Shown here: piece after piece, positions 620 through 59,697 of the stretch
Layout: every line of letters starts with the position of its first letter
Numbering within the stretch: the stretch's first letter is position 1
Origin: Antedon mediterranea
Lineage: Eukaryota > Animalia > Echinodermata
Direction of reading: 5' to 3'
Assembly (NCBI RefSeq): GCF_964355755.1
Contig: NC_092670.1
Span: 20,942,795-21,006,794, forward strand
DNA: 64,000 nt
Translations under genes and position numbers: made by a program
The notes under the pieces: generated by a model
Seen by the model: the letters and a program-made list of their open reading frames with translations, nothing else
Told to the model about the DNA's origin: nothing
Databases searched by the model: none

Positions 620-915
620 TGGATCTGGGCTAGTCAGCTTAACTGGCTCTGGGCTAGTCAGTTTAACTGGCTCTGGGCTAGTCAGCTTAACTGGTTCTGG
701 GCTAGTCTGCTTAACTGGCTCTGGGCTAGTCTGCTTAACTGGCTCTGGGCTAGTCTGCTTAACTGGCTCTGGGCTAGTCTGCTTAACTGGCTCTGGGCTA
801 GTCTGCTTAACTGGCTCTGGGCTAGTCAGCTTAACTGGCTCTAGGATAGTCAGCTTAACTGGCTCTGGACTAGTCAGCTTAACTGGCTCTGGGCTAGTCA
901 GCTTAACTGGCTCTG
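620..915. repeat. 24-bp minisatellite (GGCTCTGGGCTAGTCAGCTTAACT)n, about 12 copies
   Basis: Visible tandem units; explains the repetitive ORF 590..928. Confidence 0.95.
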
Positions 916-13396: not shown

Positions 13397-14077
13397 ATGT
13401 ACTCAGGATTGTCAACAAGCTCAAACGACACCGCCACTGTCCCGAAAGTTGCCGAAGACACTTTCAGAAAACTTCGGAAAGTTCTGGACAAACAGGTTCG
13501 TTATTCGTTGCATAAGTACACATTGACGCAATATATCAAGTCAGGGCTTATTCCACGAGGTCTAAGAATTCAACTTGAGCCATCGATAGGGAACTGTGAT
13601 GTAACATTTGTCGAGCAATGGGACGCCTTCCTGACCAAAACCTCGAATGAATTGATGGGGATGGTTATAACATTCTGTGATGAGCAAGAAGAACTGTTAA
13701 AACAAGAAGCCGATAAATTAGAATCCCACATAGAATTAGAGATAACAGACCCTGTAGTGTTAGCCAACACTAAGTCACTGCTGTGGACACTGACGGAAAG
13801 AGTTCGTGCCCGGGCACTTGAAACGAAAGAGAGGAAGTTTCATAGAGATACTCACCCTCACGACAGCCTGTCACCAAGCTCACCACGTCATACTCAACAA
13901 GGTGAAACATCGTCTAGAAGTACCCCAAGAACACCCAGATCTCCCATCAGTCCGATGTATTATTCAGAGGCCACACTAGGCTGTGTTTCGCCTCATTTTC
14001 AACCACTTGGTAATGACCACAGCCAACAACATGATTCAGGATGTACGGAAAACAAGAAACAGAGAACGAACACATGA
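13397..14077 (+). CDS. Intronless 226-aa ORF resembling the N-terminal (pre-RT) region of Penelope-like (Neptune-type) element proteins
   Basis: Motifs Y...GLIPRGLRI..P.......F...W...L...S..LM and K.RKF.RD; AAACATGT start context; AATAAA twice after the stop; no RT or GIY-YIG downstream. Confidence 0.6.
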   Translation: MYSGLSTSSNDTATVPKVAEDTFRKLRKVLDKQVRYSLHKYTLTQYIKSGLIPRGLRIQLEPSIGNCDVTFVEQWDAFLTKTSNELMGMVITFCDEQEELLKQEADKLESHIELEITDPVVLANTKSLLWTLTERVRARALETKERKFHRDTHPHDSLSPSSPRHTQQGETSSRSTPRTPRSPISPMYYSEATLGCVSPHFQPLGNDHSQQHDSGCTENKKQRTNT

Positions 14078-33011: not shown

Positions 33012-33932
33012 TGTATTTGTGGTCTGGAAGCTTAGGTTGGAAAACACTTGTTTTTCATGCAGTTGAGAAGAAAATGTGATGTATTCTTAATAAACAATCG
33101 CCATGCAGCCTTTATCATCATATACAGCACAGCTGCGTAGAAATGCATACAGTATATATGTATATATATCAACCTTTTAATGTAAAAAAGAAATGTACCA
33201 ATTTATGTAAACTCAAGGATTAAGTCAACAAGAGTTGTTGGTTACAAAGCTGGCCATGGACTCTCATGCACACACACACTCAAAATAGGAAACGCTTAAC
33301 CTGTTGGTACTGTACAGGCATTATATACCACGTCAGCAAAACCGACCTGTGTAAAAAATGCTTTTTGTAGGTGGGATATTTTTCTCTTAATTATGCAATG
33401 TTTTAATAGATAAGTATATAAATAGACCAACTTTCACTTGCCTGAGAGGCATACCTTAAATTATGTGTGATCTCCTGTCTCAACTGGTTCTAAAACAATA
33501 GTGTGTTTATACGTCCAGCTGGTGTCATGACAACCGCACTTACGAGGGCGCTTACCGTCTCTTCAACAACCGCCTTATGCAATATTTCAGCATGTGACAA
33601 TTAGACATATGCAATAACAGTGATCTTACAATTTATCTTATTTATCTCTACTACAATATTATTCAATTATAGTTATCTAAGAGATTTTCTTATCAAAATA
33701 TTTAAAAAAAATGTATAATTAACAACAAAAAACATAATTTTGGAAATCTGTAAGCCAAATTTGTAATAATTAAAAATTTTTTAATATTACATAGTTTTTA
33801 AATTTCTGTCTTTTAATAAACATCTATATTTAGTATTTACGATCAAAACTCTATTCTTTTCATACTTTCTTCAAATTTGTAGCCATTCTTGTTGCTGGTC
33901 CCACCTAATATCTACACAATCCACTCACCTTA

Positions 33933-36900
33933 TTAAGCAACATTTTGCTCAACTTTTTCCATTTCTTCTAAGCTAGGCTTAGATTCCAGTGGCTCTGGAA
34001 CAACTGTCTGGTCCTCAACAGGCTCACAGCTGATTGGCTCATCTGGAACCTGCTCTGTTTTGATTTGTTCCATTTCAATAGCATCAGATTCCTTTACCTC
34101 CCTGTTGCCATCTGTAGAAGACACTTCTCCATATTGATGAGGCTCTGATGCTGCTGTTTCCATTTCTTCTGTATTTTCTTCTTTAATTTCTGAAAACAAA
34201 TTCAATTAGTTTTTAAGTCACAGGGTCAGAAATCATCTGTTTTAGAAGAAAAAACTGTTGTGAAGATAAATTGTACATACTGTACAGGCCTTGTCTTTTA
34301 AAAATTATAGGTGTGCTACAAATTGCACTCCTCAATACATTCAGGGGTGATGTAAGTGTTTAACAAATTTAAGTCATAAATCACACACCTTAAGGGCAGT
34401 TTAGGAGTGCCTTAGGCGAGTGATCGTACTCGCTCGCTTTAAAAGACAAGGCCTGTACATAGACACACAGGCACAACTGTAATAATGTCCATTCCAAAGG
34501 ATGACAATAAACTAATCTAATCCTGCCCATTCTACACTATTCATAATTCAATTTTCCTATACTTTTAATCAGAAACTCACTTTCTTGTTGCTCAGCTGAA
34601 GCTTCTTCCTTTTTCTCTCCATCTGACGGCTTCTTTTCTCTACTACGTTCTCTATCACGATCAGTTCTCTCACTGCTCTTTTTTCGTTCATGACTTTTTG
34701 AGCGACGTCTATCTCTAGAGCGTGAACGCGAATATTTTCTGCTGCGAGAACCCGATCTTGATCTTCGCTTATCTCTGCTTCGTGAGCGCGACCGCCTTCT
34801 ACGATCTCGACTACGACTCTTTCTGCGCCTAAAAGTAATAGATAATAAAAATATCATATCCAGTAATTTAGTTTAATTTAAAAGTACTGTATTTAGTATA
34901 ATTTTTTTAATGTATAATACCTGTCCCTGTCTCTATCCCTGTCTCGGCTTTTGCTTCGACGTCTTCGGTCACGGCTCCTCGACCGTCTCCTGTCACGAGA
35001 TCTACTCCTGCGACGACGATCCCTTGACCTAGATCGTGACCTTCTGTCTTTTCGCTCTTTCTCTTTTTTTTTCCGTCTTTCCTCTCTTTCTTTCTCACGT
35101 TCCTCTCTTTCTTTCTCACGTTCCTTTTCCCTTTCTTCTCGCCTTTTTTGACGTTCTTCTTTTTCTTTCTCCCTTTCCTTTTCACGTTCCTCACGTTCTT
35201 TTGCCCGTTTAGCTTCCAGCTCCTCTATTGGACGTCTTTGTTCTTTCTACAACACACAACATGATAAAGCATTATAAATCAAAAAGATTCATCTCATACC
35301 TTCAAACAAATAATAAATGTATATGCAATACAGTGCTAAACAATACTAATAATTGATATTTATTAAATAATAATAATTGACATTACAATACCTTAATTTC
35401 ATCAATGGTGGCTTTAATCTTGGCATAACCCATGTGTTGTTTTCCCATCAAGTGTTCATCTACTCTTGACTTGGCATCTCCTATAATAAGGAAGGCCGCA
35501 CACACCTGGCATACCTCCATCTGCTTCTCTTGTGAAGCTATAGACTCGACAGACTGAAATTGCAAGGGAATTGATATTACAATACTAAGACTCAGCACAC
35601 CCAATATTTATAAAAAAAAATTAACAATTTAAATTAACAAATACATTACAAAATAATGTATTGCCATTCTAGGTGTGGAAGAGAGAACTTATTAATTCAA
35701 GTCAGTTTATTTATTCAAATATCAATAGTATATAAGAAATGAATAAATATAAAAAAGGACTAATAATGCATTAACTATCAGTCAGACGGTAACATGATAT
35801 AACAACAAGTAGTGATGATTTTGGCATCGGAAAAACCCAGGCACAGTAGCAAAGTCAGGATTTAAAATCAGGACTGAACTCTGCAAACATTTTAACAACT
35901 AAGTTGAAGTTTCACTAAATTAATCAATTAATACTCCAAATACACATCAATCATTGGACCATTTAAAAAAGTCACCCATTGTTTTTGTCACCCATTGTTT
36001 TTGTCACCCATTCTTAGTTCCATTTGTTGTCACATAGTGTATATGACATTACCGCGAAAGTGGTAAATCGCAAGCAATTATGTACAGTACGCGAAAATAA
36101 TGGCATATACAGTATTCTTTGTCACCCATCCTGTGCAGTAATAACACACTTACTACTCTTAGCTGTTCTCTCTCATCTTTCAGTTGGTCCACTAATTTCA
36201 TAGTGCCCTCTGCTTCCTCTACTTTACCATCGCATCCCAACTGCTCCACTTGTTCCAGTAAGTTGTTAATCTTCTCAGTCAAAAACTTTATCTTCTCTTC
36301 ATTTTTATTCTTTAATGGTGTGTGAAGCTGTCAATCAAATGAGTAAAATAAATGTCATTCTTTAATTATACAGTAAAACCTCTATTAAGGGGACATATTT
36401 AATAGCTACCAAAGTTCCCCCTGAATACATGTTTGTTGTAGTGTTACAGAACTGGTAAACTTCAATCAAAATACATACTGAATTTGATGTGTTGTTCAGA
36501 GCCAGTCTAGAGTGCCCTCTACGGATGCGTCGTTCAACGTCTTGCATGACCTGTTCTAGGCAACTCAGAAACGCATCCTCGTATCCCATTTTTTTAAACC
36601 TGGAACTCTCACGATATCTATATAAAGAAAATAAGTGCCTATTATTATTATAAGGTATATTTGATTGCTTTGGAATTTGGAGTTAGTTTTAAAGCTATCA
36701 CAACAATTAGTTTGGGAGCATAAATATAATAATTTTTTGATATTTTCTTTGTTTGAACTAAGATAAAGTAAAACTAAATTTCTGGATTTTTGCATTACAT
36801 GATTGTGTAAGATTTAATTGAGTAAACAAATAAAATACTTACGCTTTCCGCAATTCCTCATCATGAAGCTTAGTACATGGTCCTGCAAAAAAACATAAAT

Positions 36901-39285: not shown

Positions 39286-41677
39286 ATGGAAAAAAGGCAA
39301 CAATTACTTTTAGAAGAGAGGCTCAGAGAAGCTGCTTCACTCGGTGACAATGATGAAATAGTAAAGTTATTAAATTTAGGCGTTGAGATCAACAGCAGGA
39401 ATCAAGTCAACGGGTGGTAAGTCATACAGACGGTCATCATACCATAGAGATATTATAGTGAACTATAATATCTCTATGGTCATACTAAACACCACATAAC
39501 ACTACTACTAGTAATACATGCGCCTACTTCACTCCTAAATATAACTTAAGCTAGCCCTCTAAAATAATCTCTTCTAGAAAAATAATGTGCTGTTTAGTAA
39601 GACCGATCATACACTCTACATACAGTGGCAGATCAAGGATTCTGAAATAGGGAGGGCCAGGGCCTACAAATGGTGAAATAAATTAAATGAGTTTAGTTTG
39701 ATTTTCTATCTTTTGCATTACAATTTCCAAAATTTAGGGGGCCTGGGCTGGCTGAGCCTTCCGTTGAATCCCTGACATGCTGGTATATATTTTTAGGTGT
39801 CTTTTTATGCCAAAAATTAATATATTTTTTTTTTTATTAGGTCGCCGCTGCATTGGGCATGCAAGAGGGGTCAAGTAAAATCAGTTGGCATACTGCTGGA
39901 GAGAGATGCAGATAAAACAATAGAAACTAATAGTGGAGAAACACCAGATCAGCTAACAACCAAAACAGAAATACACCAAATGTTAGGAGGTAAGGACAAT
40001 AGTATACTGCAGTAGGACTGTGGTTGCTGCAGTGATTTTACTACAGCTTCCTACTGCAAATCTTGTTTGTGGCACCAAATTGCAGAAGCCAAATTAGACC
40101 ATAAAGCCTATTTTCGACTAGTCAAACATGTGTATTCATGTTTCCATCTTCCAAATCTTATATATGCATGCGTATAAGCTGACGCTTTCAGTGCGCGTGA
40201 ACAAATTTGCCTAGTGGAAAATCGGCTTAAAAGAGTTCTGGTATGCTTTGTCAATACGGAAACAATAGAACATTAAATTAATTTTTTTTATTATATTTAT
40301 TAGTTTCTTCTGTCAATTTAATTTAACCTACTAAAAATTTTAATGGCTTTATATAATTACAGGTTTCATCTCTAACTAATTAAATCATTGATTTCTGTAT
40401 ACTGTACTAGATAGTTTATCAAAGACATAACAAATTTGAAATTATCAAAAACTGATCGTGCACTTTTAATGACCTTCATAATGCAAAACATTATTACTGT
40501 ACTTTTCTTGCTCACGATAATCAAATTACTCTCCATTAAAAATTTAGCTTTAAAAGATATGCTGAACCATTGCTCCAAGGTTTAATTATCTGTTTTATGT
40601 TGTTATGCCTTTACGAGCACCACCAGGCAACGTTTTGAGTTGTGTCTGTAAACTAGATGATTCCAGCTCAAGTGTTATACGTATGAAATGCCATGTGCCA
40701 AAACTTTTTATCAATATTAAGTCGAATTGCCATCTAAAACCTAGACTACCTGAATCAGTAATGATATTATCAGGGAGTTGCAACTCCCTGCTGGATATTA
40801 TATAATAATAAATGTTCATTTTATGATGTTTAGTGAATATTATATTTGTTTACAGTAACACCAGAATCCATAGCATCACCTACAACTTTACCAATCACCC
40901 CAAACTATTTACAACACTCTATAGCAACGTATACCACGTACAATGGTGGTGAACAAAGGTCAGAGGTCAACCCACCAAGTCATCCATCGAAACCAATAGC
41001 AACAACAAACAATGATGGTGAGATTTGTACCATTTAATTGTGGGTTATTATAACAGTCACCAGATATCCTAAATTGAAAAAAATGGAAACTTTACAAATG
41101 CATAGCCAACCCATAGAGGGTGCTACACCATTTGTAAATGACATCCAAACGTAGAAGGTGCTATAAAAATTCTCTAGCATCAGCATCTGTTGTATACAAA
41201 AAGTATGCCATTTCTAGGCACTTAATAATTGTGGAAGATACGTCAATAACAAATTTTTCGGAAAGAAATTGCACATTTAGGGACAGATCACTTGAAATAT
41301 TATTGGAAGACTTTTTAGGATTGAACCAAGAATTATTTATTTTTAATCCAATCATAAATATTAATAATACTATTTCTTTTTTTAAACCAGAACTTGTATT
41401 AAAAGTGCGTGTGGCCAGTGCACTTGAGAGCGACTTTATCGAAGTAGAACTAGATCTAGCAAATCTAACGTTCCAAAACTTGATAGAAGTTTGTTGCCGA
41501 GAGCTTTACATTAAACCGGAACTTTTGGTAAAGGTTCGAAAACTACCAAATACAATTGTGCGGAAAGACAAAGATGTCCAACGATTTCACGACTTCCAGG
41601 AACTCGAGTTTGTCTTACGAAAAACAACGGTGGACAATCATGCTGTCCCGTTCCAAAATCAAAGTATTTATTATTGA
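39286..41677 (+). CDS. ANKRD40: Ankyrin repeat domain-containing protein 40
   Basis: Exons 39286-39416, 39841-39989, 40856-41017, 41391-41677; EERLREAA..GD, N.VNGWSPLHWACKRG, LPITPNYL, C-terminal ELVLKVRVA...DFIEVEL...RKLPNTIVRKDKDV.R. Confidence 0.93.
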
Positions 41678-43454
41678 TAATCTGATTACCGCAATGCTGC
41701 AGTTATCAATTACTGCAGTAATGTAATTGGATTATTAGAATAAAATGATACATGTGATTGTTTGGAAGTGGGCATACACAAACCAAAATGTAAATAAAAA
41801 AAGATGCATGTTGAACTACCACTATTTATTATAGTATTACAAAGTAGGAATACATTTTAATCAGGTAATTGTGATAGCTTTAAGAGCTGTGATTGGTATT
41901 TTTTACAAACGTTAGTTTTTATGGTGTTTTCAATTAATAGGAATTCTAGATACTACATAATAGTAGAACTGAATGTATTTAAAAGTCTGTGTCTACACCA
42001 GGGAGTTGTAATTAATTACAACTCTTTGGTCTACACTATCAAACTAGTTTGACAAAAAAAATTGTTCATATCATCGTGTCCATATTGGCACATCAAAGTT
42101 TGTTGTCACAAAGTAGTGTAGACATAACTTAAGGTGAGGGGTTTTAGCTTGATGCTTGGCTACTACTCGGCCCCTGGTTCAAATCCTGTAAGATACTAGT
42201 ATTTTTTTCAAATACAAAAACATGTGTACCAGTTAATGTAGAGCGTAGTGATAAAATTCACTAACAAATCATTTTCGACAAAATCCTTGAAAATGAATAA
42301 TGAATGACCACCAATATTATCATATTATAGACTGAATACAATAGATATTTCTTCAGTTCCACAATTCTGGGTTCGAATCTTGTGGTAATTAAAGGACTTT
42401 AGCTATACCAGACCTGGCTATACTAATTTGTATTTGTGATAATTTAAATAACATAAATTTAAATAGTTACTCTGAAAGGAACTGACCCTGGATCTTTCAA
42501 TGATTGTCTTCATTTTTCAAGTAACCAATCAGTTACATGCATCATTATATATTGCTGCTGCATTTAATATATGCAAATGATGTTTGTTATTAATATTCAT
42601 TGTATATGAAACTGTCTGGATTGTAGAGTTGATTATGAATATTTATAGGGCGTTATGGTATTGATATGTAATGAGTGTAATTTCAATCAATATTACTTTT
42701 TATTTGGATAAAAATACATTTATTATCTTCCGAAAAATATTTGTTATATATTGGAAGAAATTTAGTCTATACAAACAATTGACTATACTGATAGATTTGA
42801 ACCAGGGTTATTTACTGGGTATTTATTTTTTACATGTGACTCACCGGAAGAATAATTTTGAACGTACTAATTTAAATATTTTTTTCAACTGCACGATTGG
42901 CACAAAATAGGCCTACGCAAGAATTCTTTGTATTGTATGCTTTTGTGAACATAGCGAATTCACTGTATTTTTTTAATGAATAAATACGAAATATTTAGGC
43001 ATTTTAAAAAAGGCTAAGTAAGCCTATGGAGGCCTACACAATTATATTAGGCCTGCTAAAACAGTGACAATCAACACTTTTTGTTTAATATAATAATATA
43101 TTATACATAAATTTAAAAGCGTTTTTTAAACGATATTAAAGGCACAGTTGAACACAACTTTGTAAACAAACTGATTTCAAATATCATTTACCAGTATATA
43201 AAAAGGCGTCATTTTATATGAGAAAACATTTTTTTTGTTACGGAAGGTATTAACTTTATTAAAACTACAAAATAACCTATTCAAAAGTATGATTTAATTA
43301 ATCTTCATTTTTCCTGTATTTATGGGAAAATACATCTTTAAAAATAGGCTATACGCTCTACATCGGTGATCGATTAAGCCCAAGCTGGCTGGCCTATATT
43401 TTCATTTTTATGCCCGAATTTGGTCACCTTGTTGCTAAACAAACAAAGAGTAAG

Positions 43455-44275
43455 ATTTGTTGGAAATTCCCGCGTATAGCCCGGGAAATTTTAAGTTTAT
43501 TTTTAAAAATTGTCTAATCAGTCATATCCGCGTGACAATGACAAATCATATTCATTATAGTCATTATACCAGACGGCTGTGTCGCTGACAGAATCATTAA
43601 GGTAAGCCTAAATCTAATCAATCTCGGTTGGGTTTTTCATTTTCATTTTCTCATCAAACCATCAGAGACTCTAGTGTTTTATATTTATTCCATTCATGAC
43701 ATGATCGGCTCATAGAGGTATAAAATTAGAATTTTATACCTCCATACCATGATCGGCTGACCGTTTTGTTTATGAGTTATAATAAGCATATAGTGACCAT
43801 GTCTATAGCAGATTGCTTCATCATATCACAGAGAGTTAGACCTACCACAATTGTAGTTATTATTCAACTCTGCGTTAAGTTTAAATGTAACCATTAGGCC
43901 TATTTGATTAAAACATCCTAAGTAAAAGTCTAGAGTGGGTAGGCTTAGGCAGCTACATGCTTCTGAATCGGATTTTACAAAAGTCTATTTTTAACCCCGG
44001 AAAAATCCCTCGATATTTAAAGAGACAATAACACGGTTATCAAATGTCACGTGATTAGGCCGTGCCTATCTTTGATCTACCGTATAAGATTCGCAATGAA
44101 ATGGGGACGTAGTGTTGATATTAATGTAGGCTAAATATAGGTATGATAATATGTATCAAAGGTCAACAACCAAACTGTTTGGAAATGGAGTAGGGAATTT
44201 TGTAATACTAAAATAGGCCTTTAGTTTATTTCACGAGGGTGTGGCCGGACATGTCACACTTTGTGAATTTCCATA
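43455..44275 (+). promoter_or_regulatory. Cluster of NF-kB-like sites around the non-coding first exon of the Cys-rich receptor gene
   Basis: GGAAATTCCC 43462-43471 (reverse GGGAATTTCC), GGGAAATTTT 43483, GGAAAAATCCC 43999, GGGAATTTTG 44193, GTGAATTTCC 44263; donor AAG|GTAAGC at 43601/43602. Confidence 0.5.
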
Positions 44276-44371
44276 AAGGCCTAACAAACCGTATTATTAA
44301 TATTAGCTTACTGCTGCTAAAACTTGCTACATTTTTGTTAAACATTATAGGCGTTAAAAAAAAGCACGAAG

Positions 44372-47300
44372 ATGAACAGTACTACTACTAGTAGTACCGG
44401 TAGGCCAAATTCCGGGACCATATTGTATCTAGGACTATGCATATTTATAGCTATACACCTTCAAATGTCGGCGGCAACAAAGACACAGTGGAACGGAGGA
44501 TGTCCAGACAGATGTAAAGAAAACCCAAGCAAATATTGTGACGAAATCACTAAGACCTGTAAGACCTGTTCGTGCACTGATGGGCCAGATGGAAAAGAAT
44601 GTCGTTGGAAGTGCCAAAGTATGTACTTGTTGATCGAAACCAGGAACTCTTCCCTGGTCGAACATTGTATCGAACAGTAATAAGCATAAATGATTTGATT
44701 TATTTGTAGGCCCTTCCTCCATGAAATAATTCACTTGTAATTGTGTAATTTTTTTTTCTCTTTGGTGGGGGGGGGGGGGGGGTGTCGCATGTGCATAAAC
44801 TATTACAGACTAAATAAAATAGCCTATAGGGTTAGTAGGCCTACACCAGTGCCTAACTAATATCCATTATAATAATTTTATTTTATAATAATTCTTGCAA
44901 ACATTAATAAAAGATATGTTTATTGCTTTTCTATTGTATACATCGGCTTTTTTCTTACAGTATTTGCATGAACATTTTCTTCAACAGCATTGTTTTAGCC
45001 TATATTAATTAGCTTTTCTATATATTAACATATAATACTATATATGTTACAAAGGTTATACATAAACACAATCGAGTTAATAATATTCACAATTCTCTCT
45101 TATCCTATTTTAACCATATCATTTTCCTTTCAATCAAGTTGACATTGTTTTTACTAATTAATATTGTTGTTATGATTCCAAATTAGAATATCTCCCAGAA
45201 TCGCGACAGAACGCTTGGGAAGGTTGTATTGATAACTGTCAGCAAGATGTATCATACTTCTGTGATCAAGGCAGCAGAACATGTATGGAGTGCCAAGATC
45301 TTTGTGACAACGAACCACAAGAAAAATGCCTTCAGAACTGTCCAGGTATGTTTATTGATTGTATAACGCAGATTTTGTTTAAATGTGCCTATCGTTTTCT
45401 CACATAATTTCTACTTTGAACCGACTGTTTATTGTATTGATAAAAGAGACCTATGATATTTTTTACAGAACGTACGGAAAGTTGACAAAATATGATAGTT
45501 GCCCTGTATATATCATTATTTACTGTCCTCTATAAATAATAAACTCATTTTGTTGGAGTGACGTTTGAGAACAATTGTTATCAATAATTCAATGGCGTGC
45601 CAAGAAATTCCTTTTATTAGCCTACTGTTTACTGCTATATGTAATGACACATCCTACTTAGCATCGTTGTTTGAACGAGCGCGTCAAAGTCCCAATTGTT
45701 TTCAGATAATAGTGTTACTGTCAGTTGAATAAAGCTCTCTCTACACTACCAAACTAGCTTGAAAAAAAAGTGTGATGTGCCCAAATATGGTAGTGATACC
45801 CATATATGGGCACATCACATTTGTTGTCACATAATAATAATACTTGAGTGTAGACAGGGCTTTAGAAATTACTACAGTACCCATATTCTATTGTTCTATA
45901 CTGCACTACTTCTTTTCATTCCAGCTTATCTGCTGAACAAACAAAAACCAGTGGTGACAAACAGTTGGGAGGGTTGTTACGAGAACTGCCAATACGACAT
46001 TTCATATTTCTGCGAGGCAGGCAGTGGAACTTGTATGGAATGTTATGATCTTTGTGACGCTAAAGCAAGTCATTACCTTAAGCAGAATTGTTTTACAAAG
46101 TGCCCTGGTAACTATATCTATACATCCCGTCCCGGGATTTTGTTCTCTATCCGAATACCATTTTTTCGTGCCTTTCATTAAGCATTGACATAGTATGTCG
46201 TGCACCATACACAATGCATTTTCCCGCACTAAGTATGCCTAGTGGTCAGCTGCACCCCCGTCTAGTCGGAGATTGGTATGATTTGCTAGTTCATTAGAGT
46301 ACACCAGGCCCGTATGCAGCATTTATAATGGGGGGGGGGGGTGCGAGCGAAGCGAGCAACAATGGCTGGGGGCCAGGGGGCCGCCAAGGGCTCCCGGTCA
46401 GAATTTGCGTTATTTGACGTTCTAAAGACTGATTTAAGACTCTCTGTTGTGGCTTGGGCTAGTTGAACGATGGACACCAGAACTTAACGCTTTCATGATG
46501 AGGCCAACTCAGCAGGGGTGGCGCCAGGATCTTCCCGACGCGGGGGCTACATTCCCCGACGAGGGGGCTATGCGAGCGAAGCGAGCATCACTAGGCTGAG
46601 GGCCAGGGGGCCGCCAAGGGACCCCGCTGGGGGTCCAGGGGGCGAAGCCCCCGGAAGCAACGCGTTCTAGCGTCATTTGAGGTCTTTTTAATCAGATTTA
46701 GATTCATTTTTTATAATGCATAAATAAAATACTGCGTGCAAAAAAACGATGCGCGATGACTGTTTCAATCCATATTTTTCAATTTAAAAAATAAAAGTTC
46801 AAAGAAAATTTAGAAAAATAGAGTTGGAGGTCCCGGAAATTGGACTTCAAAACATGAAAAAAAATATATAAGTCCCTATCATGGGTTGTGACTGAGCTAA
46901 GAAATGTTTGAAAAATAGAGATGTTAGGTCCCGGAAAATGTACTTCTTGTTCTTCGAAATATGACCAGCTTTATTGTTGGGGCTGAGCTAAGAAAATGTT
47001 TAAAACTAGAGCTGCAGGTCTTCAAAAAATTGCATTTTATACTTTGGAAACATCAGGCCTAGAGGCTTAAAAAACGCAAGCGTAGACCTTTTTCAGTCGG
47101 GGAAATAAGTTTATTCCTCCCAGGTGTATGCATGCGTACCATCTGGACTTCCGAGTGGTGAGAAATTCATGACATACAGGATATTGAAAATGTAATAACT
47201 ATAGCTATAATGTTGGCTAAGCGAAAATGGCATGTTTTTTTGTTTAGTAATGGATGAAAAAATTATTTTATGTTCCCCACGGTACAGAAGGTTACTTGTA

Positions 47301-50300
47301 AATTAAAAAATTGGTGAACAAACGAACAATTAACATAATTCGTTTTTGCTGTAGTGTAGCGTACGTCGACGCAGTACACGACGTAACCGTCGGTAAACTT
47401 CGCCTGGAAAATAACACATTACACATTTTGGTCCCTGGATGAAACTTGATATCACGCGTCTCGACCCAACGTTGAACGATTCGTACAAAGGGATACCGCC
47501 AGACAAGTGCGTACCTAGCTATTGTTTAGTAGTAAGTTAGATCGCTGGCAATAATGAATGCATATAAAGTGCATAATATCACTCTGACGTACTCTCACGG
47601 TCAATGAAACGTCGCGGTTTTCTAGGCGCTGAAGCTAGCTACGAAGTGAACGCGAACGTTTTTTACTGTATATTATATTCCCCGGCAAAAAGTACACGTG
47701 TTCCCTTCGGTAACCGTCGGTAAACTTCGCCTGGAAAATAACTACATTACACATTTTGGTCCCTGGATGAAACTTGATATCACGCGTCTCGACCCAACGT
47801 TGAACGATTCGTACAAAGGGATACCGCCAGACAAGTGCGTACCTAGCTAATGTTTAGTAGTAAGTTAGATCGCTGGCAATAATGAATGCATAAAAGTGCA
47901 TATTATTATTAGCCCTCTGACGTACTCTCACGGTCAATGGAACGTCGTGGTTTTCTAGGCGCTGAAGCTATATGAAGTGAACGCGAACGTTTTTTACTGT
48001 ATATTATATTCCCAGACAAAAAGTACCCGTGTTCCCCGACGGGGGGGGGGGGGGGGGCTAGGCTCCCCGACGAGGGGGCTAGAGCCCCCGTAATCCCCCC
48101 GCTGGCGCCAACACTGCAACTCAGACGACACTGTCTGAGTTGGCCTTCCCTTGTTTAGGCGCCGTATTCGATAGTGTCTGTATTTCCAGATACGTCTTTA
48201 CCGCCGGTTAGTTGTCTGTATTTCTCCAGCAAACACTTTACCGCGTACCGCGTACATGAAGCGCTAAGCTATTGCTTGTCGTCACATGATCGACTGCGCA
48301 TGTTTTACATCGAGTTTGTAGTCAGTTCAGATTCCGTAATTTAATTACCGGTATTTTTTCATTTTATATTAGCATATTTTTGTTTGTATACCATTGATAA
48401 TGTAAATTTTGTATATATATAATGATATTGTCTTTAGTTAAACAAGACAAGAAAAAATACCAACCGAGAAAATAGTGGACCTTTTGGGACTTGGGGGGGG
48501 GGGGGGTGCGTCTGCACCCAACGCACCCCCCTGGATACGGGCCTGTACACGTATAGATTTCTGAAATTCGTTATCCGATTAAAAAAAAACATTTTAGTAA
48601 CAGCCGGCCCAGCTGTAATTATGTCCAGTTAAACCTCTAAAATCGAAAGTTTATACACACCTATTCTTTGGCACTTGAAAAACGTTCAAACGCCAATTAA
48701 AGGTGGGATCGGAACGTATAATTTATTTTATCGTGGTACATGGCCATAAAGATGGCTGCATATACGCGTGCGCAAATTTGAGTTAGTGTACCGACCGACA
48801 TAGTGAGCTATAGAGTCGACTCGACTAAAATACTGTAAGTTTAACATACACCAATAATCATGTTTTCATGTCTATAGGTTATGTGTCGACGTTTATAACT
48901 ACTGCCCGTCCAACTCCAAGTAAGATGATAGTAACTCCAAGTATACCTGCTACGGGACCTGCTGTAGAGCCGGAGACAACACAGCCACCAATACCAATGA
49001 GTGATTATACAACACAAGTAACCAATTACTCACCAACTAGTGCAGACATGGAAAGCAGAAGCTCTCACATAAATACAATATATATAGCATCAGCCATTGG
49101 CGCAATCATCTTGGTTTTAGTTGTTGTAGGCCTACTTGGCTGTTGTCTGCTTAAAAAATCGAGGCATAGGCCTAAGCAAGACAATAAGAATAAACCTGGG
49201 GACGCAGAAAATGGAATTGCAGTGCAGCAGCAGAATCAACCTCTTGTGGATGGTCATAGTAAGCTTAATTCTGTACTCCAATTTTAACATAGCTCGTCAC
49301 ACATAATACCTGTGGTTCTAAACATAATCAGGCCCGTAGCCACGGGGGGGGGGGGGGTTATGGTTCGGGCGAACCCCAATCCCCCACTCTTTACAGCGAA
49401 TCCCCCTTAACTAACTGCGAACCCCCATCCCCGACATACCCAATACCTCACTCTCATCTCTGATGACGTGCCGCACACAGTACAAAAGGTTATAATTTGA
49501 TAATTCGTAAACTCGTTCGTGAATAACTCGATACATTCTTTGCTGTATGAGCGTACGTCGAGCGATACGTGTCTGTAAATTTCCAAGAGTTGCAAATGAA
49601 TTGCCGATTTTCACCTGAAATCCCTGGATGTAACATGATATTGATGCGTGTATCGTACTCATAAAGTGAGCTGGGGCACAATGATTCGTACAAAGGACAC
49701 CGCCAGACAACCGCGTACCTATATTGTTTAGATCAAGGCAGTCAGCATGCATACAATATACCGTAAATCTTCCAATTGTAACCCTGGGTTATTATTTTTT
49801 GATTGTTTTTTAAGGTGGGTTACTATTAGAAAGGAGATTACTTTTATAGTACTGGGTAACTATTACTAATCTTAATTTAGGCATTTGAAAATAGTTACTC
49901 ACCTCAACTATTCCGTTCAGCAAATCATAGCAAAATAATAAAACAGTACGAATAAACAAATTTGTTTGAACTCTAACTTTTATTTTATAAACTCAAAAAC
50001 ACTCAATTCCCCACTCCCTAGATCAACATGCATTATCTCCTTATTTTCAAAATACGGCTGCATCATAAACGACCAGTCTTCATATGTCATTTGTCAATAG
50101 TTTTTGTGACTCTAATAATAATAATAATAACTTTATTGTTTCTCTTTTATAACAGAGGCACAATTCTCAAGAGATGTGCAACAACAACAAAAAAATATGG
50201 ACTTATCTAATATTAACCCCATGGGTTACTATTAGAGTAGTGGATTATTATTATAGATTGACTTATAGGCCTAAGGTTGGTTACTATTAGAGTAGTGGGT

Positions 50301-52021
50301 TACTATTATAGATTGACTTATAAGGTTGGTTACTATTAGAAGGAGGGTTACTATTAGAGTGTGGGTTACTATTATAGATTGACTTATAAGGTTGGTTACT
50401 ATTAGAAGGAGGGTTACTATTAGAGTGTGGGTTACTATTAGAAGATTTACGGTATAGCCTTCCGACGTAGGCCTACATAAAAAATGGAACGCTGATGCGG
50501 TTACCTACAGTATTTATGTGTGGCTATGAAGTATAGTGTATCATCATCATCATCATCATAGAGGGTTATAGTGAATATTAATATATTACACTATAATATC
50601 TATGGTATCATGTACTGTAGTTTACATTATAGCATCCGATTATTTTGTTCTAGGACCACCAGCCGATACGTGGGCTACTCAACCGTATCAATACCATCTA
50701 TTTACATTGATTAATATTCAATTTCCTCAACAAATTGCTGTAAATAAATATAGGTAGAGCTATAATAAGCATTGAATTTGACTTCTCACACAAAGTGTGC
50801 TTATTTCGGGGATTCCCCTAGGCGTACGTTCACATTGAACTTGAACGCAAAACAAAATACCGAGTGAATGATCAAACAATCGGCGGTAATTATTATAGTC
50901 CACGTGTGTGAGGAGGTGGAAAAAAGTACGAATACGATTGTTTTGCTCATTGGTAGCATGCTGCATGAGAGTGTCTTTTCCGACCAATTAGAGGTACCAT
51001 TTATCATAAATATTATGTGCGAGAGTACCATTTCCGGCTCAGGGGTGTCATTTAACAACCCCTCCCCCCTGGGGCAGTGTCCTAAATACAGTGTCCGAAC
51101 CCCCGATCACACCCCCACCCCCTTTACTGTTTAATCTGATTTTTTCTTCAATGTTTCATTCCAGCTCAGGTGCAAGAAAATGGCCCACATTCCCTTAAAA
51201 ATGTAAAAGCAGACAAACACAATACTGAATATATACCTCTTGTAGAGGAGGAGGATATTTTCCATGGTAAGTCTAGTAGCAGAGGTTGGTACAGTCATTG
51301 AGGAAACCCTCCATGGTACATCATCCCAGTGTTTATGGTTCACATAGCATGAGCACTTTTTACTATTACTTAATGTGTGATTTAAATACAGTATAAAACT
51401 ACATAGTACAGTAAATACACGTGTCAATCCAATATTTCTAGTGAAAATCGTTAGACCTTGATTTTAAGGAATGAAGTTTGACGAACAACCGGACAAAAAC
51501 ACAATTTCGCATACGAGTTTGTAAACACGTAAAATAGGACATATTAACATTATATATTTTGAAAGAATTTCATTTAGCTTCGATTTTGTATAGATGACAA
51601 ATTTCGTTTTTGTAAAAGCACAAGTTAACGGAGTACTTACTCGAACGTTTCGATCTCTATCAGAGATCCTTCTCAACTGACTGCGGAGTGTTAATGCAGC
51701 TTGGTTATTCTTGACGTCATCTGTTGATCTACGAAGTCAAAAACGAAATTTGTCATCTATAACATTATATACTTACTCCAAAAATAATATCATTTTACAT
51801 TACTAACGAAATGACGTGTTTCTTCTGAACTTGCAGATTAGGCCTACTTTCGATCAAAATGTATTAATTTTTTTCTAGCTCAACAAGAGGCTGCAAATGA
51901 CACATCTTCACTTGCTGTTAATGGTAAACCCTACCATTCAAATGCATGCATTAGTAATAGTATGAAGATGACAGAAATTACCACCACCACCACCCATCCT
52001 ATGATGATGCATTCTGGTTAA
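44372..52021 (+). CDS. Type I membrane protein with three tandem 8-Cys modules, Thr/Pro stalk, TM helix and cytoplasmic tail; Grindelwald-like TNF receptor candidate
   Basis: Exons joined by phase-1 introns: 44372-44618, 45187-45345, 45925-46107, 48878-49258, 51165-51266, 51879-52021; signal ILYLGLCIFIAIHL; TM IYIASAIGAIILVLVVVGLLGCCLL followed by KKSRHR. The last two exons are less certain. Confidence 0.8.
45731..45863. mobile_element. MITE family A copy
   Basis: AAAGCTCTCTCTACACT ... AGTGTAGACAGGGCTTT with internal GTGATGTGCCCAAATATGG / CCATATATGGGCACATCAC palindrome. Confidence 0.75.
46305..48546. mobile_element. Non-autonomous DNA transposon (outer), CAGGCCCGTA TIR with poly-G subtermini
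   Basis: CAGGCCCGTATGCAG / CTGGATACGGGCCTG ends, flanked by TACAC on both sides. Confidence 0.75.
46513..48116. mobile_element. Nested non-autonomous hAT-type element with 8-bp TSD CAACTCAG
   Basis: CAGGGGTGGCGCCAG / CTGGCGCCAACACTG ends; TSD at 46505-46512 and 48117-48124; internal tandem duplication of about 327 bp. Confidence 0.85.
49762..50452. mobile_element. Tc1/mariner-type MITE with subterminal GGGTTACTATTA repeats
   Basis: TA-CCGTAAATCTTC ... GAAGATTTACGG-TA. Confidence 0.8.
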
Positions 52022-53092: not shown

Positions 53093-53661
53093 TTAATCAC
53101 CGATCGGTAAACATTTTTCACTTTTGTTTGCAATTTAAATGTATCATTTGACTTGATTGAGGATGAATTGATAATAAGCTGCAACACTAATTATCACCTT
53201 GATTTTATAGCCTTGATTCTCGAACATTCCATCCTTTTAATGTATTCAAAGAGCAATATCATATGCAATAAAAATACTGTAGTACATATTAAAATATCAA
53301 GTAGACGACGATGGGCTGATTTTGTAAATAAAATAATGCGCAATTTTTGCATGAAACGATGTGAAACGAATCCGGCAATATTATAATGTTAATTTGCACT
53401 CACTGCAACTATAGTAATCCTCAATTCGTTATGTTTCGACCTACCTGTATGTGAATAAACAAATATAGCCTGTTATACGGCATTGGTTATTTGTTATTTT
53501 GTTTTCAGTAGACCCTACAATTATATTATAGTAGTAAGTAATAGAATCATTCAAAAACGGTGGAGAGGATGCATTCATCATTTATGCAGAAGATTGCAAT
53601 GTAGACGACGGGAACCAGTGAAGAATTAGAGGGGGTGTTTCCCTTGTTTTTTAAAATAAAT

Positions 53662-56600
53662 ATGGCGACCAAACGTCGTAATGGTGGTGGTGTTGATAGA
53701 GTTTCGAAAAAACTAGAAGCTAGCGTTGAACGAGGCGATTACTATGAAGCTCATCAAATGTATAAAACATTGTATTTCAGGTTCGTAATATCTTCGAAAT
53801 GTATAGATAGTTAAAGCCTGTAATCGGTCGAAAAAGATACTCAAAGCTTGGCCTAGGCCCGCTCTCTCGGCGGACTGTTTACTTGCCTTGTTTGGTTATG
53901 GATGTCTAGCGAACCAGGTAGACTAGCCGCGGCCGGGAGGCGGGGCCAGTCCCGACTGATCTGGAATTTGAGCTTAAGTTTTCTAGACTAGCCTAGTAAG
54001 TAGTAGGCTACTTAAATTAGGCCTACGGCGGTCTACTCATTATTGACATCCATTGACATGCATTTTTTTAATCTACGAAAATAAATACAAAATTGCAGTA
54101 AAAATTAAACAAAACTAACTAACTAGGCCCTAGTAGGCCTAGGGAACCTATATAGATAGGCCTAGCCTAGTTTTTAGGCCAATAGTATACTCTTATTAGG
54201 CGTAGCCTACCTACTATTAGTTCTCGTCAGGCCAGGCGGTAACTGTGCTATACAACCTACCTAATACCAGGCCCATTCCCTAGACTCTATCTAGGCATAG
54301 TTCAAAACTAGTTAGTAGGCCTAGTAGGCATCAATAATCACAATTTCTCCACCTAGATTGATGAATCAAAACAAGCACGCTGAAGCAATACAACTAGTTT
54401 ATGCTGGTGCAAGTCTTCTTCTTGAACACAATCAGGTACAGTATAATTATAAGCTTATTACTGTAGGTTGAATCTGTGCAATTATCATTATGGCTATGTT
54501 ATGCGCGATTTGAACGATTTGCGCAATTTGAAATTGCGCAAAAAAATCCTTGCGCAATTTGAAATTGCGCAAAGAATTCTTGCGCAATTTTAAATTGCGC
54601 AAGGATTTTTTTGCGCAATTTCAAATTGCGCAATCAACTTGCGCAATTTCAAATTGCGCAAGAAAATCTTTGCGCAATTTTAAATTGCGCTGCACAATTT
54701 GTAAATTGCGCAAGATAGTTCTTGCGCAATATGACACCTTTGCGCAATTTGAAAACGAACTGTAAATTTTCCCATACATGGCTAGGCTAGGCCTAGGCAG
54801 AGGAGTTTAAAATTTAGTATTTTATTATATAAATAAGACCATTTCAATGAAGATAATGTTTAATACTCACTTTTTAAGTTTTTAATATTAGTTTAAGCTA
54901 GGCCATGTAACCTAGTCAGTATCAGTAGTCCAGACCCTAGCTAGGCTAGAGTAGTATAGCCGGCCGCCCGCGCCGCGCCCGCCTGGTGGAACACCACCGC
55001 TTCGTTTTCCTTCGTCGGTTCTTCGACGGTATGCTAACTTATAACAATATTTGCACTACTAAAATAAGGAAATGCGATATTTATCTTTAATTTTGAATCA
55101 TTCTTAGAAATTACTATAAAAATATGGGTGTGCATGATTTCACAATCTGTCGAAAAACCTTGCGCAATTTGCAGATTACTTGCGCAATTTAATACGTTGC
55201 TTGCGCAATTTGAAACACATGTTTCAATTCAAATTGCGCAAGGATTTTTTTTGCGCAATTTCAAATTGCGCAAATCGTTCAAATCGCGCATAACAGCTAT
55301 ATACTATTCAAACAGTTGGCTGTAACAATTCATTATTCATTCATTATTGTACAGTAGAATTGGCCTGTTGGGTACAATATACTATTTTGTAGTTTTGGTT
55401 TAGATTGTGTTTTTAATGGTTCTTATTCTTATTTAGCATGTAAGTGGAGCAGATTTATGTATGCTACTAGTTGAAGCTTTTGAAGCTTCTGGAGCACCAG
55501 TCAACTCAGCTAACATAGGTAACAATGACTTAATGTACCCTACAATTAGCCCATCAGCTAACATAGGTAACAAAATGCTAAATCCACTCCAGACGTCCAA
55601 TCTAACCTTTTCTGGTTGGCCATCAAAAAAACATAATTTGTAAATTAAAACAAAATCTGGCTTATACACTGTACTACGAAATACCATTACTGTTCTTCAG
55701 TATATTAATAATAATATATAATTATTTAAAACTTTTATTCACTACAGCCAAAGTAACTGAACTATACAAGCAAGTGAGGTCAGACGTACCGGAACGAGAA
55801 CTTTTTCTAAATGCTGCCCTCAAATGGTCGGCAAAGGGTAACCCAAAAAAAGGCTGTAGTCACCCAGATCTACATCAACAGGTTGCCCTTATATTCTGGA
55901 ATGGTAAGTCTAGCTCGGGGTGGCTTACAATAAAGGTCTTTAACAAAGCCTCGGGTTGAAGAATATAAGATATTAAGAATTATTTCATTTTTCATTCAAT
56001 CGTTTATTTCGGAATCTCTGGTCCATAAAAATTAAAACCTTACTAATTACTACTACTCACACCTGAGGATGGCATTCCACCTGGAGAGCATCTTTGACTT
56101 TTATATGACGTTGCCTATAATTGTTGAGACTACAACATTTTCACTTGAATTAAGTCTACACATCAGGCCATATATCGATTTTTTTTATATCGGAATTCTA
56201 CATTCCATAAACATGAGGCTGGAACTACAATGTCGAGGCCTTTGCAACACCATTCTTAACCCAGTATTGTGTTGCCTATTATAAGTTCAAGATATATATG
56301 TACTGATATATCTATTCTGAATGCACTTTCACATTTTATTACAGAGAAATCCTATGCCTTATCCCGTTACCATTTTGTTCATTCCATGGATGGTAAGCAA
56401 TGTGCCTCAATGCTAGTTGAGTTTCATACAACTCAAGGCTACCCAAGTGAAGTAGATATGTTTATTACACAAGCTGTATTTCAGTAAGTATTTCATGGCC
56501 TTAATACCGTGAGTAAGAATGCAATTCGCATATACACTGATCACAAATTTGAGTAACACTCGAAATTCCCATTTTTTTCTGTCAATGTCTTGTATGATGC

Positions 56601-58286
56601 TAATTTACTGGTTCTGATTGGCTACATGAGAACAATCCAATTACTATGACCAGTGGCCTGGAGGTTATGAGGGCCCCCCTCAGCAGTACCAAGAGGAAAA
56701 ACCAGGCATTCAAATAATGTCATAAAAGCTGAAAACACCCACTTAGGGCTTTTAAATCAGGGGCCTCAGGAATCTGTGTTACGCCACTGACTATGACAGT
56801 TCGAGTTTTAAACAGGCATGGATGATTTGTAAGCAATAATTACAAATTTACCGTGTTTATTATGTTAATTTCTATTTAAAATGCTGTATTATGTAAACAT
56901 ATTTTGTTGTTTTTCAGGCTGTTGTGTCGCAAAAATACAACAACTGCGAATGAAACATTTCAGGTTTACACAGAGAGTCACCCCAACATTGAGAAAGGTC
57001 CACCTTTTATTTTACCCCTTCTCAATTTTCTTTGGTTTTTACTGTTAGCAATTGACAGGTACTTTTGAATTATTACTTATTTTTGGTAATTAAAATAGAG
57101 TTTCAAGTTTATTGTTTCACACAATACAATATACAATACATACATACATAAATTAATAAATATAATTGTGGGAGGAGGACACATTAAGCCAAGGCTTTAA
57201 GTTTGGTCCTCCAGATAAATAAATATATATTTAATTTAAGTGAGAGAAAAAAAAACAAATTTCATTAATTTCATTAATAAAACTACAGTTAATGGGTTAA
57301 TAAACCTTTTCCATTTATACCAAATGCTCAAGCAAAAGGCCAATTTACACAAAGGGTAACGGTAAGCGGAAAACCATGTAGCTTGTCCCACGTAGAATCT
57401 GTATCGATCCCGAGCAAAAACTGCTCGTCCGCTCCGCGATGTGAGTAAATCGTAATACGAAGGTTCGAATCCCGTTCATACAACTAAAAACACGGAACTT
57501 TCGCCGATGAGCTATGCTCGACATGATTATAAGATCATGTGCCAAATATGAGCCCTGTTTCTATAATTAGACAGTATGATTAACATATATTCTATATTTA
57601 AATTACCATTACCACTCGTCTGTGTAAATTGGCCTTAAAAAAAAAACAACAACTGAACCTGAACAAGCAAAGAGCTAAAGCAAAAAGTGCAACAGCCAGA
57701 TTGCAATATTTTCAATCAATTTATTCTAATTGCAATACACAATAGATTATTACATACATAAAATGTATACTTCATAATAATAATGTCTGTTGGCTAACAA
57801 ATGTTTTTTATATTGCAGTGGAAAATTAGTAATGTTCACTGTTCTTTGTGAAAAATACAAACCTTCATTGCAAAAGGACCCTACATACAATAGTTACCTA
57901 GACAAGATCGGACAAATATTCTTTGGTCTACCACCACCAAAACCAAGCGGGCCAGAGGGTATAATTGGTAAGTTATAGTGTAGTATGATTAGTAGTACAT
58001 GATTATGACATCACAAACCTGACCTAATTTTAAGTTAACATGATGTGGTAGAATATAGAATACCAACGTGATGTTTTGTTATTTTTACTGATTTTCAAAT
58101 AAAACGTGTTTGCATTTTGAAAGGTGCGTTTTCTGTTACAATACAATAAAGGTAAAAATCTATATTTATCTTACAGGCAACCTTGTTCAGTCACTCTTTG
58201 CAGCTGATATAGATGACAGTGATGAAGATGAAGCCATAGCAGCCAAAAAGCCTGAGGCAGAACTTTGCGGTTTAGACCTTGATTAA
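53662..58286 (+). CDS. GET4: Golgi to ER traffic protein 4 homolog
   Basis: Exons 53662-53780, 54357-54435, 55437-55518, 55748-55903, 56345-56483, 56918-57058, 57819-57967, 58177-58286; [56 protein letters not shown], acidic tail ending LDLD. Confidence 0.97.
54496..55295. mobile_element. MITE with arrays of TTGCGCAA palindromes in GET4 intron 2
   Basis: About 60-bp TIR TGTTATGCGCGATTTGAACGATTTGCGCAATTTGAAATTGCGCAAAAAAATCCTTGCGCAATTTGAA at both ends. Confidence 0.9.
56651..56789. mobile_element. Short hAT-type MITE with 8-bp TSD ACTATGAC
   Basis: ACTATGAC-CAGTGGC ... GCCACTG-ACTATGAC. Confidence 0.8.
57337..57636. mobile_element. MITE in GET4 intron 6
   Basis: AGGCCAATTTACACA / TGTGTAAATTGGCCT inverted ends. 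Confidence 0.75.
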
Positions 58287-58470
58287 TGATGTGTATCAGT
58301 CGCTGCACTGTAATGTACAATCAACCAAGCTTTCATATATTGATTTTTTTCCGTTCTTCGTTTAAAGACTATTTTTTAATAAAATTGTTTGTATTACACA
58401 ACACTCGGACTGTGTTTTTAAAAAGAAATATTTACACATTTATTGTATGTACAGTATTGTGCGATATTAA

Positions 58471-59280: not shown

Positions 59281-59697
59281 AAAGCTCTACACTATCAAAC
59301 TAGTTTAACAAGAAAGTGTGATGTCCCCAAATATGGTAGTGAAATGCCCAAATATGGTAGTGATATAACGGCATCACTACCACATATGGGCACATCACAG
59401 TTTTTTTGTCACATAAAGTTTGATAGTGTAGACAGAGCTTTAGAGTTGTGAAATCAGTATCTAAAAAAATCAAATTTCGCCAGCACAAACCCACCTTATA
59501 CGAACTATGCTTTGGAGTTGGAAGCTTACATTCTCAGTGAGAAAAAGCCCTAAAGCTCTGTCTACACTATCAAGCTTTACGTAACAACCAATGTAATGTG
59601 CCCATATATGGACACGATGACGATATATTATTACTACCATAATTAGGCACATCACACTTCTTGTCAAACTCGTTTGATAGTGTGTAGACAGAGATTT
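59281..59697. mobile_element. Two adjacent MITE family A copies (about 59281-59441 and 59552-59697)
   Basis: AAAGCTCT(GTCT)ACACTATCAA ... TTTGATAGTGTAGACAGAG ends. Confidence 0.8.

What the first reader, a model, noticed from the sequence alone, without database searches (positions are those of the whole stretch)
44372..52021. Grindelwald-like TNF-receptor candidate with three exon-encoded cysteine-rich domains
Seen: signal peptide, three 8-Cys modules (GCPDRCKENPSKYCDEITKTCKTCSCTDGPDGKECRWKC; GCIDNCQQDVSYFCDQGSRTCMECQDLCDNEPQEKCLQNC; GCYENCQYDISYFCEAGSGTCMECYDLCDAKASHYLKQNCFTKC), mucin-like stalk, TM with CC, and a tail with no death domain. Module 2 is absent from the ORF track. Known: Drosophila Grindelwald, the Eiger receptor, has a single 8-Cys domain with a spacing I recall as C-x4-C-x6-C-x6-C-x2-C-x3-C-x11-C-x3-C-x2-Y; the last six cysteines and the Tyr of module 3 match it. 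Inference: a multi-domain Grindelwald-type receptor outside insects, possibly linking to TACI/BCMA-like receptors.
Basis: partly seen in the sequence, partly recalled or inferred. Interest (0 to 1): 0.82.

Follow-up and report, generated by a model that had tools for sequence, protein, structure and literature searches.

The report
Feather-star triple-domain Grindelwald/TACI-type receptor
This feather-star gene encodes a 404-residue protein with a membrane-spanning segment and three repeated eight-cysteine domains most like those of the fly TNF receptor Grindelwald and the human B-cell receptor TACI, so it is likely an undescribed echinoderm member of that receptor type, predicted to bind a TNF-family signal.

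Summary
Six exons, all introns phase 1, give exactly NCBI's 404-aa 'uncharacterized protein' of the crinoid Antedon mediterranea: hydrophobic leader, three 8-Cys modules (one per exon), S/T/P stalk, TM, 117-aa tail. One spliced contig (93-99% alike) joins exons 1-2-3-4; the TM itself is bridged by length only. The only relatives found are two 2-module proteins of the crinoid Anneissia japonica. Profiles put Grindelwald (E 0.039, gapless) and TACI CRD2 (E 0.006) first among 177,635 PDB sequences. Foldseek's 4 hits were Grindelwald and BCMA, but weak; VIA-align found none. Cysteine spacings span both types. Both Anneissia tails carry a TRAF6 motif; Antedon has Leu for its Pro, so it may signal weakly or act as a decoy. 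Ligand binding is untested. 'Outside insects' is not new: a preprint reports Grindelwald-like genes in molluscs, annelids and cnidarians, and TACI has two domains. A 2-3-module form in an echinoderm was not found in 10 paper searches. The scan earlier noted an arthropod Grindelwald-like gene, but no sequence look-alike. Verdict: new variant of a known kind, moderate interest.

The parts
44372..44618 (+). Exon 1 of the NCBI model: hydrophobic leader (likely signal peptide, about residues 14-36) and module 1; the 5' end is uncertain
   Evidence: contig covers 44448-44618 only; possible phase-1 acceptor at 44449-44450
44501..44614 (+). Module 1, 8 Cys, spacing 3-7-6-2-1-8-3 (atypical: C-x2-C-x1-C); the most diverged module
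   Evidence: 27-38% identity to the other six crinoid modules
45187..45345 (+). Exon 2, carrying module 2 (Cys 45225-45341), spacing 3-7-6-2-3-7-3
   Evidence: joint 44618 to 45187 GT..AG in the X1 contig
45925..46107 (+). Exon 3, carrying module 3 (Cys 45975-46103), spacing 3-7-6-2-3-11-3; last six Cys and the Tyr match Grindelwald; likely the main ligand-binding module
   Evidence: model with beta-hairpin plus two helices; joint to exon 4 GT..AG
48878..49258 (+). Exon 4: S/T/P-rich stalk, transmembrane helix (about 49078-49152, ending CCLL), basic juxtamembrane stretch
   Evidence: contig covers 48877-49061, the rest bridged by 310 letters against 298 expected, in frame
51165..51266 (+). Exon 5: cytoplasmic tail with LVEEED (51239-51256), aligned to the TRAF6 motifs of the Anneissia relatives but with Leu for Pro
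51879..52021 (+). Exon 6: end of tail and stop codon; AQQE (TRAF2-type consensus) spans the exon 5/6 joint; 3' UTR follows
   Evidence: contig covers 51878-52323

Best explanation
The gene encodes a 404-residue protein with three exon-encoded eight-cysteine modules, a stalk, a membrane-spanning segment and a tail, which is likely a Grindelwald/TACI-type TNF receptor, predicted to bind a trimeric TNF-family ligand and then likely to recruit TRAF adaptors. Shown: gene structure, the splicing of exons 1-4 in one diverged contig, module anatomy, two crinoid relatives with two modules each, and closest solved relatives Grindelwald and TACI. Inferred from Grindelwald's structure: each module is a beta-hairpin (X2) plus helix-loop-helix (C2) with four disulfides. 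A ligand trimer, probably of the Eiger/EDA/APRIL type, would be gripped through hairpin tips, most likely by the membrane-proximal module as in TACI. Three receptors would cluster, and the tails would gather TRAFs for JNK or NF-kB output without a death domain. The extra modules arose by duplication of symmetric phase-1 exons. The TRAF step is well supported for the Anneissia relatives and weakened in Antedon. Step odds: same domain family about 0.9, TNF-ligand binding about 0.75, TRAF signalling by this copy about 0.5.
For: PDB sequence search with the family profile: Grindelwald first of 5 rows, E 0.039, gapless over 46 residues. Module profile: TACI CRD2 E 0.0062 and 0.0092, Grindelwald 0.076, first three of 4 rows. 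ESM Atlas: P0003 scores 0.93 to mollusc TNFR-like and Grindelwald clusters and 0.90 to TACI, 10 of 10 best family hits in one clan; module 3 structure rows 1-8 of 10 are a mollusc cluster, Grindelwald (TM 0.60), TACI, BCMA and Fn14 domains. AF2 model from 5 rows gives a hairpin then two helices; all 4 Foldseek rows among 350,542 chains are Grindelwald or BCMA. The aromatic at Grindelwald Phe46 is kept in 7 of 7 crinoid modules (6 Phe, 1 Tyr) and Ser/Thr at Thr51 in 6 of 7; both residues are needed for Eiger binding. TRAF6 motif PxExx[FYWHDE] lies at one aligned place in both Anneissia tails. Listed coding differences in the contig: modules 4 non-synonymous to 5 synonymous, stalk and tail 19 to 1, Fisher p 0.0055.
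Against: No match reaches a curated threshold: Pfam gave no TNFR-type family for any protein or module, and Atlas structure rows are all under its naming bar. The model is weak (pLDDT 61.7, pTM 0.37); Foldseek E 0.66-9.4, TM 0.34-0.38, rmsd up to 8.5. Scores rest largely on cysteines. Grindelwald's Tyr48, His66, Asn67 and Asp69 contacts are not kept. No module has the full D-x-L motif; module 1 has D-E-I. P0001 lacks the TRAF6 motif, whose Pro appears strictly conserved. Its AQQE arises in 27% of tail shuffles, and the Anneissia motifs in 14% and 19% each. The difference table was cut (40 of 109 rows shown) and comes from one contig.
Confidence: 0.68

Rival explanations
1. A decoy or dampened receptor: it binds the TNF-family ligand, perhaps avidly through its extra modules, but signals little because its tail has lost the TRAF6 motif that its relatives keep.
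For: Leu for Pro at the motif; 9 of 9 listed coding differences in the last exon change the residue; the Anneissia genes are a pair on one contig, so paralogues could diverge in role.
Against: The acidic VEEED core is identical to P0002's, and a TRAF2-type AQQE lies 9 residues on; the 117-aa tail is intact; fish TACI also lacks the mammalian consensus (PMC5360319); invertebrate TRAF preferences are untested.
Confidence: 0.2
2. A membrane protein that shares the fold or cysteine pattern but binds something other than a TNF ligand, or acts without ligand.
For: All matches are weak; several Eiger contacts differ; detectable relatives are only crinoid.
Against: Sequence profiles, language-model features and a model all point to the same small receptor group, and the relatives carry a TRAF motif.
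Confidence: 0.1
3. A mis-joined gene prediction: the cysteine exons belong to a secreted protein separate from the TM exon.
For: The TM-coding part of the contig was not listed as an aligned piece; the contig is 93-99% alike, and its run is RNA only by guess.
Against: The contig joins exon 3 to exon 4 at GT..AG and reaches exon 6 with an in-frame length; the relatives have the same layout.
Confidence: 0.02

Closest known systems
Drosophila Grindelwald (PDB 6ZSY, 6ZSZ, 6ZT0; PMC8024323)
   Same: Eight Cys; last six Cys plus Tyr of module 3 match exactly (6-2-3-11-3, x2-Y); same C1-to-C3 span; Phe46 and Thr51 equivalents; single TM; module 3 is 10 of 46 identical by my count on the alignment.
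   Different: Three modules instead of one; second Cys shifted by one (3-7 against 4-6); acidic residue instead of Tyr48 in the three Antedon modules; His66, Asn67, Asp69 not kept; deuterostome host.
Vertebrate TACI (TNFRSF13B; PDB 1XU1, 1XUT), with BCMA, BAFF-R and Fn14
   Same: TACI CRD2 aligns without gaps over four Cys. Its spacing 14-2-3-6-3 equals Cys 2 and 4-8 of Anneissia P0002 module 1. Asp or Glu at the hairpin Asp position in 5 of 7 modules. Tandem modules, as TACI has two (PMC5360319).
   Different: TACI has six Cys (no counterpart of Cys 1 and 3), the D-x-L motif and no signal peptide; the crinoid proteins have eight Cys and a likely signal peptide.
Invertebrate 'grnd' homologues of molluscs, annelids, cnidarians and others (bioRxiv 10.1101/2024.07.27.603686); mollusc Atlas clusters
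   Same: CXXCXXXC signature (6 of 7 crinoid modules), TM downstream of the domain; Atlas score 0.93 for P0003.
   Different: Described as single-CRD; 'echinoderm', 'deuterostom' and 'chordat' occur 0 times in the main text; figures and supplements were not seen.
Anneissia japonica LOC117109790 and LOC117109774 (uncharacterized)
   Same: Same module type with W-x-G start, stalk, TM and tail motif position; E 1.5e-13 and 7e-11.
   Different: Two modules each; intact TRAF6 motif; shorter tails (70 and 90 aa as cut).

Membership tests
Grindelwald-type TNF receptor | 8-Cys domain with C2 consensus C-x3-C-x11-C-x3-C | tested here: met
   Exact in module 3 and in P0003 module 2; loop of 6-9 in four others; module 1 has x1 instead of x3
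Grindelwald-type TNF receptor | X2 hairpin plus C2 helices fold | tested here: inconclusive
   Secondary structure agrees; Foldseek ranks Grindelwald first but E 0.66, TM 0.38; Atlas TM 0.60, under its bar; VIA none
Grindelwald-type TNF receptor | Disulfide pairing (intercalated, then nested) | not testable with these tools
   No model coordinates were returned
Grindelwald-type TNF receptor | Single CRD | tested here: not met
   Three modules here, two in relatives; hence a variant, not a plain member
Grindelwald-type TNF receptor | Extracellular domain, one TM, no death domain | tested here: met
   signal peptide judged by hydropathy only
Grindelwald-type TNF receptor | Binds a TNF-family trimer | not testable with these tools
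   No genome held and no ligand sequence in session, so no complex job was run
Grindelwald-type TNF receptor | TRAF-binding tail | tested here: inconclusive
   TRAF6 motif in 2 of 3 family members; absent from P0001; AQQE at chance level
TACI/BCMA/BAFF-R (TNFRSF13B/17/13C) | Six or fewer Cys, D-x-L hairpin, type III without signal peptide | tested here: not met
   Eight Cys; D-x-L in 0 of 7 modules; hydrophobic leader present
TACI/BCMA/BAFF-R (TNFRSF13B/17/13C) | Orthology by tree or synteny | not tested
   No vertebrate or insect sequence was in the script box; the synteny hint is recalled only
Canonical TNFR_c6 (PF00020), EGF, ShKT, WAP | Pfam match | tested here: inconclusive
   No such match, but PF00020 also misses Grindelwald per the preprint, and this Pfam copy returned no Grindelwald family

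The most novel reading that the evidence does not exclude
The crinoid receptors are the echinoderm orthologue of the ancestor of vertebrate TACI, BCMA, BAFF-R and Fn14 and of insect Grindelwald. They keep the ancestral 8-Cys module from which the B-cell receptors arose by losing one disulfide, and they reached tandem modules by exon duplication. An APRIL/BAFF/Eiger-type signalling axis would then be pan-bilaterian and predate B cells. The gene's neighbours (LUC7, ankyrin gene, GET4) have human counterparts that, from memory, lie in the 7/16/17/22 paralogon that holds those four receptors.
Probability: 0.45. Interest if true: 0.68.

Novelty: new variant of a known kind. Interest (0 to 1): 0.45.

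Why it matters
The papers read here do not connect Grindelwald to the vertebrate BAFF/APRIL/TWEAK receptors by descent. One preprint calls Grindelwald arthropod-specific. Another finds single-domain forms in other invertebrate phyla and names no deuterostome in its main text. A deuterostome family whose modules match Grindelwald's spacing in some copies and TACI's in others fills that gap. It gives a testable receptor for echinoderm TNF ligands; two of the sea urchin's four are reported as EDA-like (PMC7674686). It is an evolutionary gap-filler, not a new mechanism.

Tried and rejected
No genome was held, so paralogues, ligands and synteny could not be searched. phmmer of module 3 alone against PDB gave 0 hits. 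The single-sequence AF2 model was all-helical (pLDDT 57.5), and its VIA search gave only unrelated rows at Z 3.4 or less; discarded. VIA-align on the better model gave no Z of 2 or more. Word-based homologue searches found only P0001 or P0001 and P0003 (2 of 2201 candidates). Of 6 HMMER representative hits, P0001 is the query; P0004 and P0005 were read and dropped as unrelated repeats without the module; P0006 was dropped unread, on its 19-residue match. No further module or paralogue exists in the window (next hmmsearch hit E 0.038). The module tree was unresolved, 0 of 4 branches well supported. A scan for an alternative first exon in 41700-44400 gave no convincing candidate. A candidate exon at 50156-50225 was dropped: weak donor, inside repeats, not in P0001, and it does not fit the contig's length. 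No paper confirming the paralogon idea was found. PDB search with a LUC7 exon gave only artificial repeat proteins. No complex prediction was run.
Full report
Observation. The region is an intron-containing animal gene. Three 8-Cys modules lie at 44501-44614, 45225-45341 and 45975-46103, each in its own exon. Six exons with five GT..AG phase-1 introns translate exactly to P0001, NCBI's 404-aa 'uncharacterized protein' XP_071949060.1 of Antedon mediterranea, a crinoid. After the modules come a 65-aa stalk (48% S/T/P), a hydrophobic segment peaking at residues 270-288, and a 117-aa tail. Pfam finds no death domain and no domain above a curated cut-off.

Splicing. Five runs were listed and none is on record as RNA; I laid 2 of the 5. 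One 2143-nt contig of X1 (RNA by guess) lacks the introns. It joins 44618 to 45187 (GT..AG), exon 2 to exon 3 (5 letters in place of 8, in frame), and exon 3 to exon 4 (GT..AG). It then has 310 letters between 49061 and 51878, where the model predicts 298, again in frame. The TM-coding part was not among the listed pieces, so it is bridged by length only. The contig differs at 5 of 171, 1 of 159, 12 of 174 and 16 of 185 letters, so it is a diverged allele, sister species or paralogue. Its first 77 letters did not align, and a phase-1 AG sits at 44449-44450, so the start of the model is uncertain; no better upstream exon was found. This is one contig from one study.

Relatives. A three-module profile over 1.84 billion representatives gave 6 hits: the query, two true relatives and three dropped rows. 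The relatives are Anneissia japonica LOC117109790 and LOC117109774, both listed with a 286,626-base contig. Each has a leader, two modules, stalk, TM and tail. Across 7 modules, the spacing is fixed at 3-7-6-2, then 3 (1 in Antedon module 1), a loop of 6-11, and 3. Antedon modules 2 and 3 are 60% identical. A tree could not order the duplications.

What the module is. Against 177,635 PDB sequences, the whole-family profile ranks Grindelwald first (E 0.039, gapless 46 residues; 5 rows, two of them TM matches to a sodium-channel subunit). The five-module profile ranks TACI CRD2 (E 0.0062, 0.0092), then Grindelwald (0.076), then a pheromone (0.86). Antedon-only profiles give TACI at E 0.4-0.6, and module 3 alone gives nothing. 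The ESM Atlas points to mollusc TNFR-like clusters, Grindelwald, TACI, BCMA and Fn14; about 4-10 in 100 shuffled proteins reach 0.9, and the structure rows are under the naming bar. An AF2 model from 5 rows (pLDDT 61.7) has a hairpin at 17-20 and 25-28 followed by two helices, the layout described for Grindelwald (PMC8024323; passages and part 1 of section 8 read). Foldseek returned 4 rows, two Grindelwald and two BCMA, none significant. VIA-align returned none. Each line is weak, they are not fully independent, and all lean on cysteines; but none points to another disulfide family.

Between Grindelwald and TACI. Reading the alignments: module 3 and P0003 module 2 match Grindelwald's last six Cys and Tyr exactly. 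P0002 module 1 matches TACI CRD2's six-Cys spacing (14-2-3-6-3) exactly. TACI lacks counterparts of Cys 1 and 3, which would pair with each other under the intercalated pattern described for Grindelwald (inference). The Phe46 position is aromatic in 7 of 7 modules and the Thr51 position is Ser or Thr in 6 of 7; both are needed for Eiger binding. The hairpin Asp position of TACI is Asp or Glu in 5 of 7, but D-x-L occurs in 0 of 7. Grindelwald's Tyr48, His66, Asn67 and Asp69 are not kept.

Tail. TRAF6 binds PxExx[FYWHDE], with the Pro apparently strictly conserved (PMC9597381, passages). Both Anneissia tails have it at one aligned place; singly it arises in 14% and 19% of shuffles. P0001 has LVEEED there, without the Pro, plus an AQQE that 27% of shuffles also yield. 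Among 29 coding differences in the cut table (40 of 109 rows shown), the modules show 4 non-synonymous to 5 synonymous, the stalk and tail 19 to 1 (p 0.0055). The modules are constrained and the rest is not, which leaves a decoy reading open.

Mechanism. Most likely a TNF-family trimer binds hairpin tips of three receptors, chiefly through the membrane-proximal module; TACI's second domain binds far better than its first (PMC5360319, passages). Clustered tails would then recruit TRAFs. Grindelwald binds Traf2 and fly signalling runs through JNK (PMC7674686, passages). All of this is inference; no ligand was available, because no genome is held.

What is known. bioRxiv 10.1101/2024.07.27.603686 (parts 1-4 of 6 and term searches; figures and supplements not seen) reports 115 grnd homologues including molluscs, annelids and a cnidarian. 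It describes them as single-CRD and never names echinoderms or deuterostomes in the main text. bioRxiv 10.1101/2021.12.26.474206 (passages) calls Grindelwald arthropod-specific. Of ten paper searches, bore on this question, and their listings showed no description of a crinoid or multi-domain Grindelwald-type receptor; most subscription journals are outside the library. The scan's own notes hold no sequence look-alike, nothing on TNF in this genome, and one arthropod Grindelwald-like gene, which I did not test.

Neighbourhood. The gene sits between LUC7 and ankyrin-repeat genes upstream and GET4 downstream. From memory, these resemble human LUC7L3 and ANKRD40 (17q21) and GET4 (7p22), and TACI, BCMA, Fn14 and BAFF-R lie on 17p, 16p, 16p and 22q, the same paralogon. 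No call confirms this; it is a lead only.

Verdict. Real gene, reading supported, new variant of a known kind: it works like a Grindelwald/TACI-type receptor, fails the single-domain criterion of Grindelwald and the six-Cys, D-x-L criteria of TACI/BCMA, and its ligand is unproven. Interest 0.45.

Noticed in passing
window 33900-36700 (-): LUC7-family splicing factor gene with an RS-rich tail (Pfam LUC7, E down to 5e-21); LUC7L3-like by recall.
   Followed up: partly
window 39800-41700 (+): Ankyrin-repeat gene (Pfam Ank) head to head with the LUC7 gene; its last exon resembles ANKRD40 by recall only.
   Followed up: partly
window 53600-58300 (+): GET4 gene directly downstream.
   Followed up: partly
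window 25826-26158 (-): Exon of an FMN-dependent dehydrogenase (Pfam FMN_dh, E 8e-19).
   Followed up: no
window 45760-45840: Very high-copy short inverted-repeat element in intron 2, just upstream of exon 3; similar sequence appears near 42030-42120 and 59300-59500.
   Followed up: no
window 46300-48600 and 49300-49800: Intronic repeats, including a near-duplicate of about 300 bases at about 47380-47690 and 47710-48030.
   Followed up: no
window 594-950 and 6003-6572: Tandem repeats that give long open frames on both strands.
   Followed up: no
window 13394-14074 (+) and 9145-9732 (-): Long open frames without a useful Pfam hit, retroelement-like by recall.
   Followed up: no
window 44448-44451: The spliced contig starts matching at a phase-1 AG inside annotated exon 1; a different first exon is possible.
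   Followed up: partly
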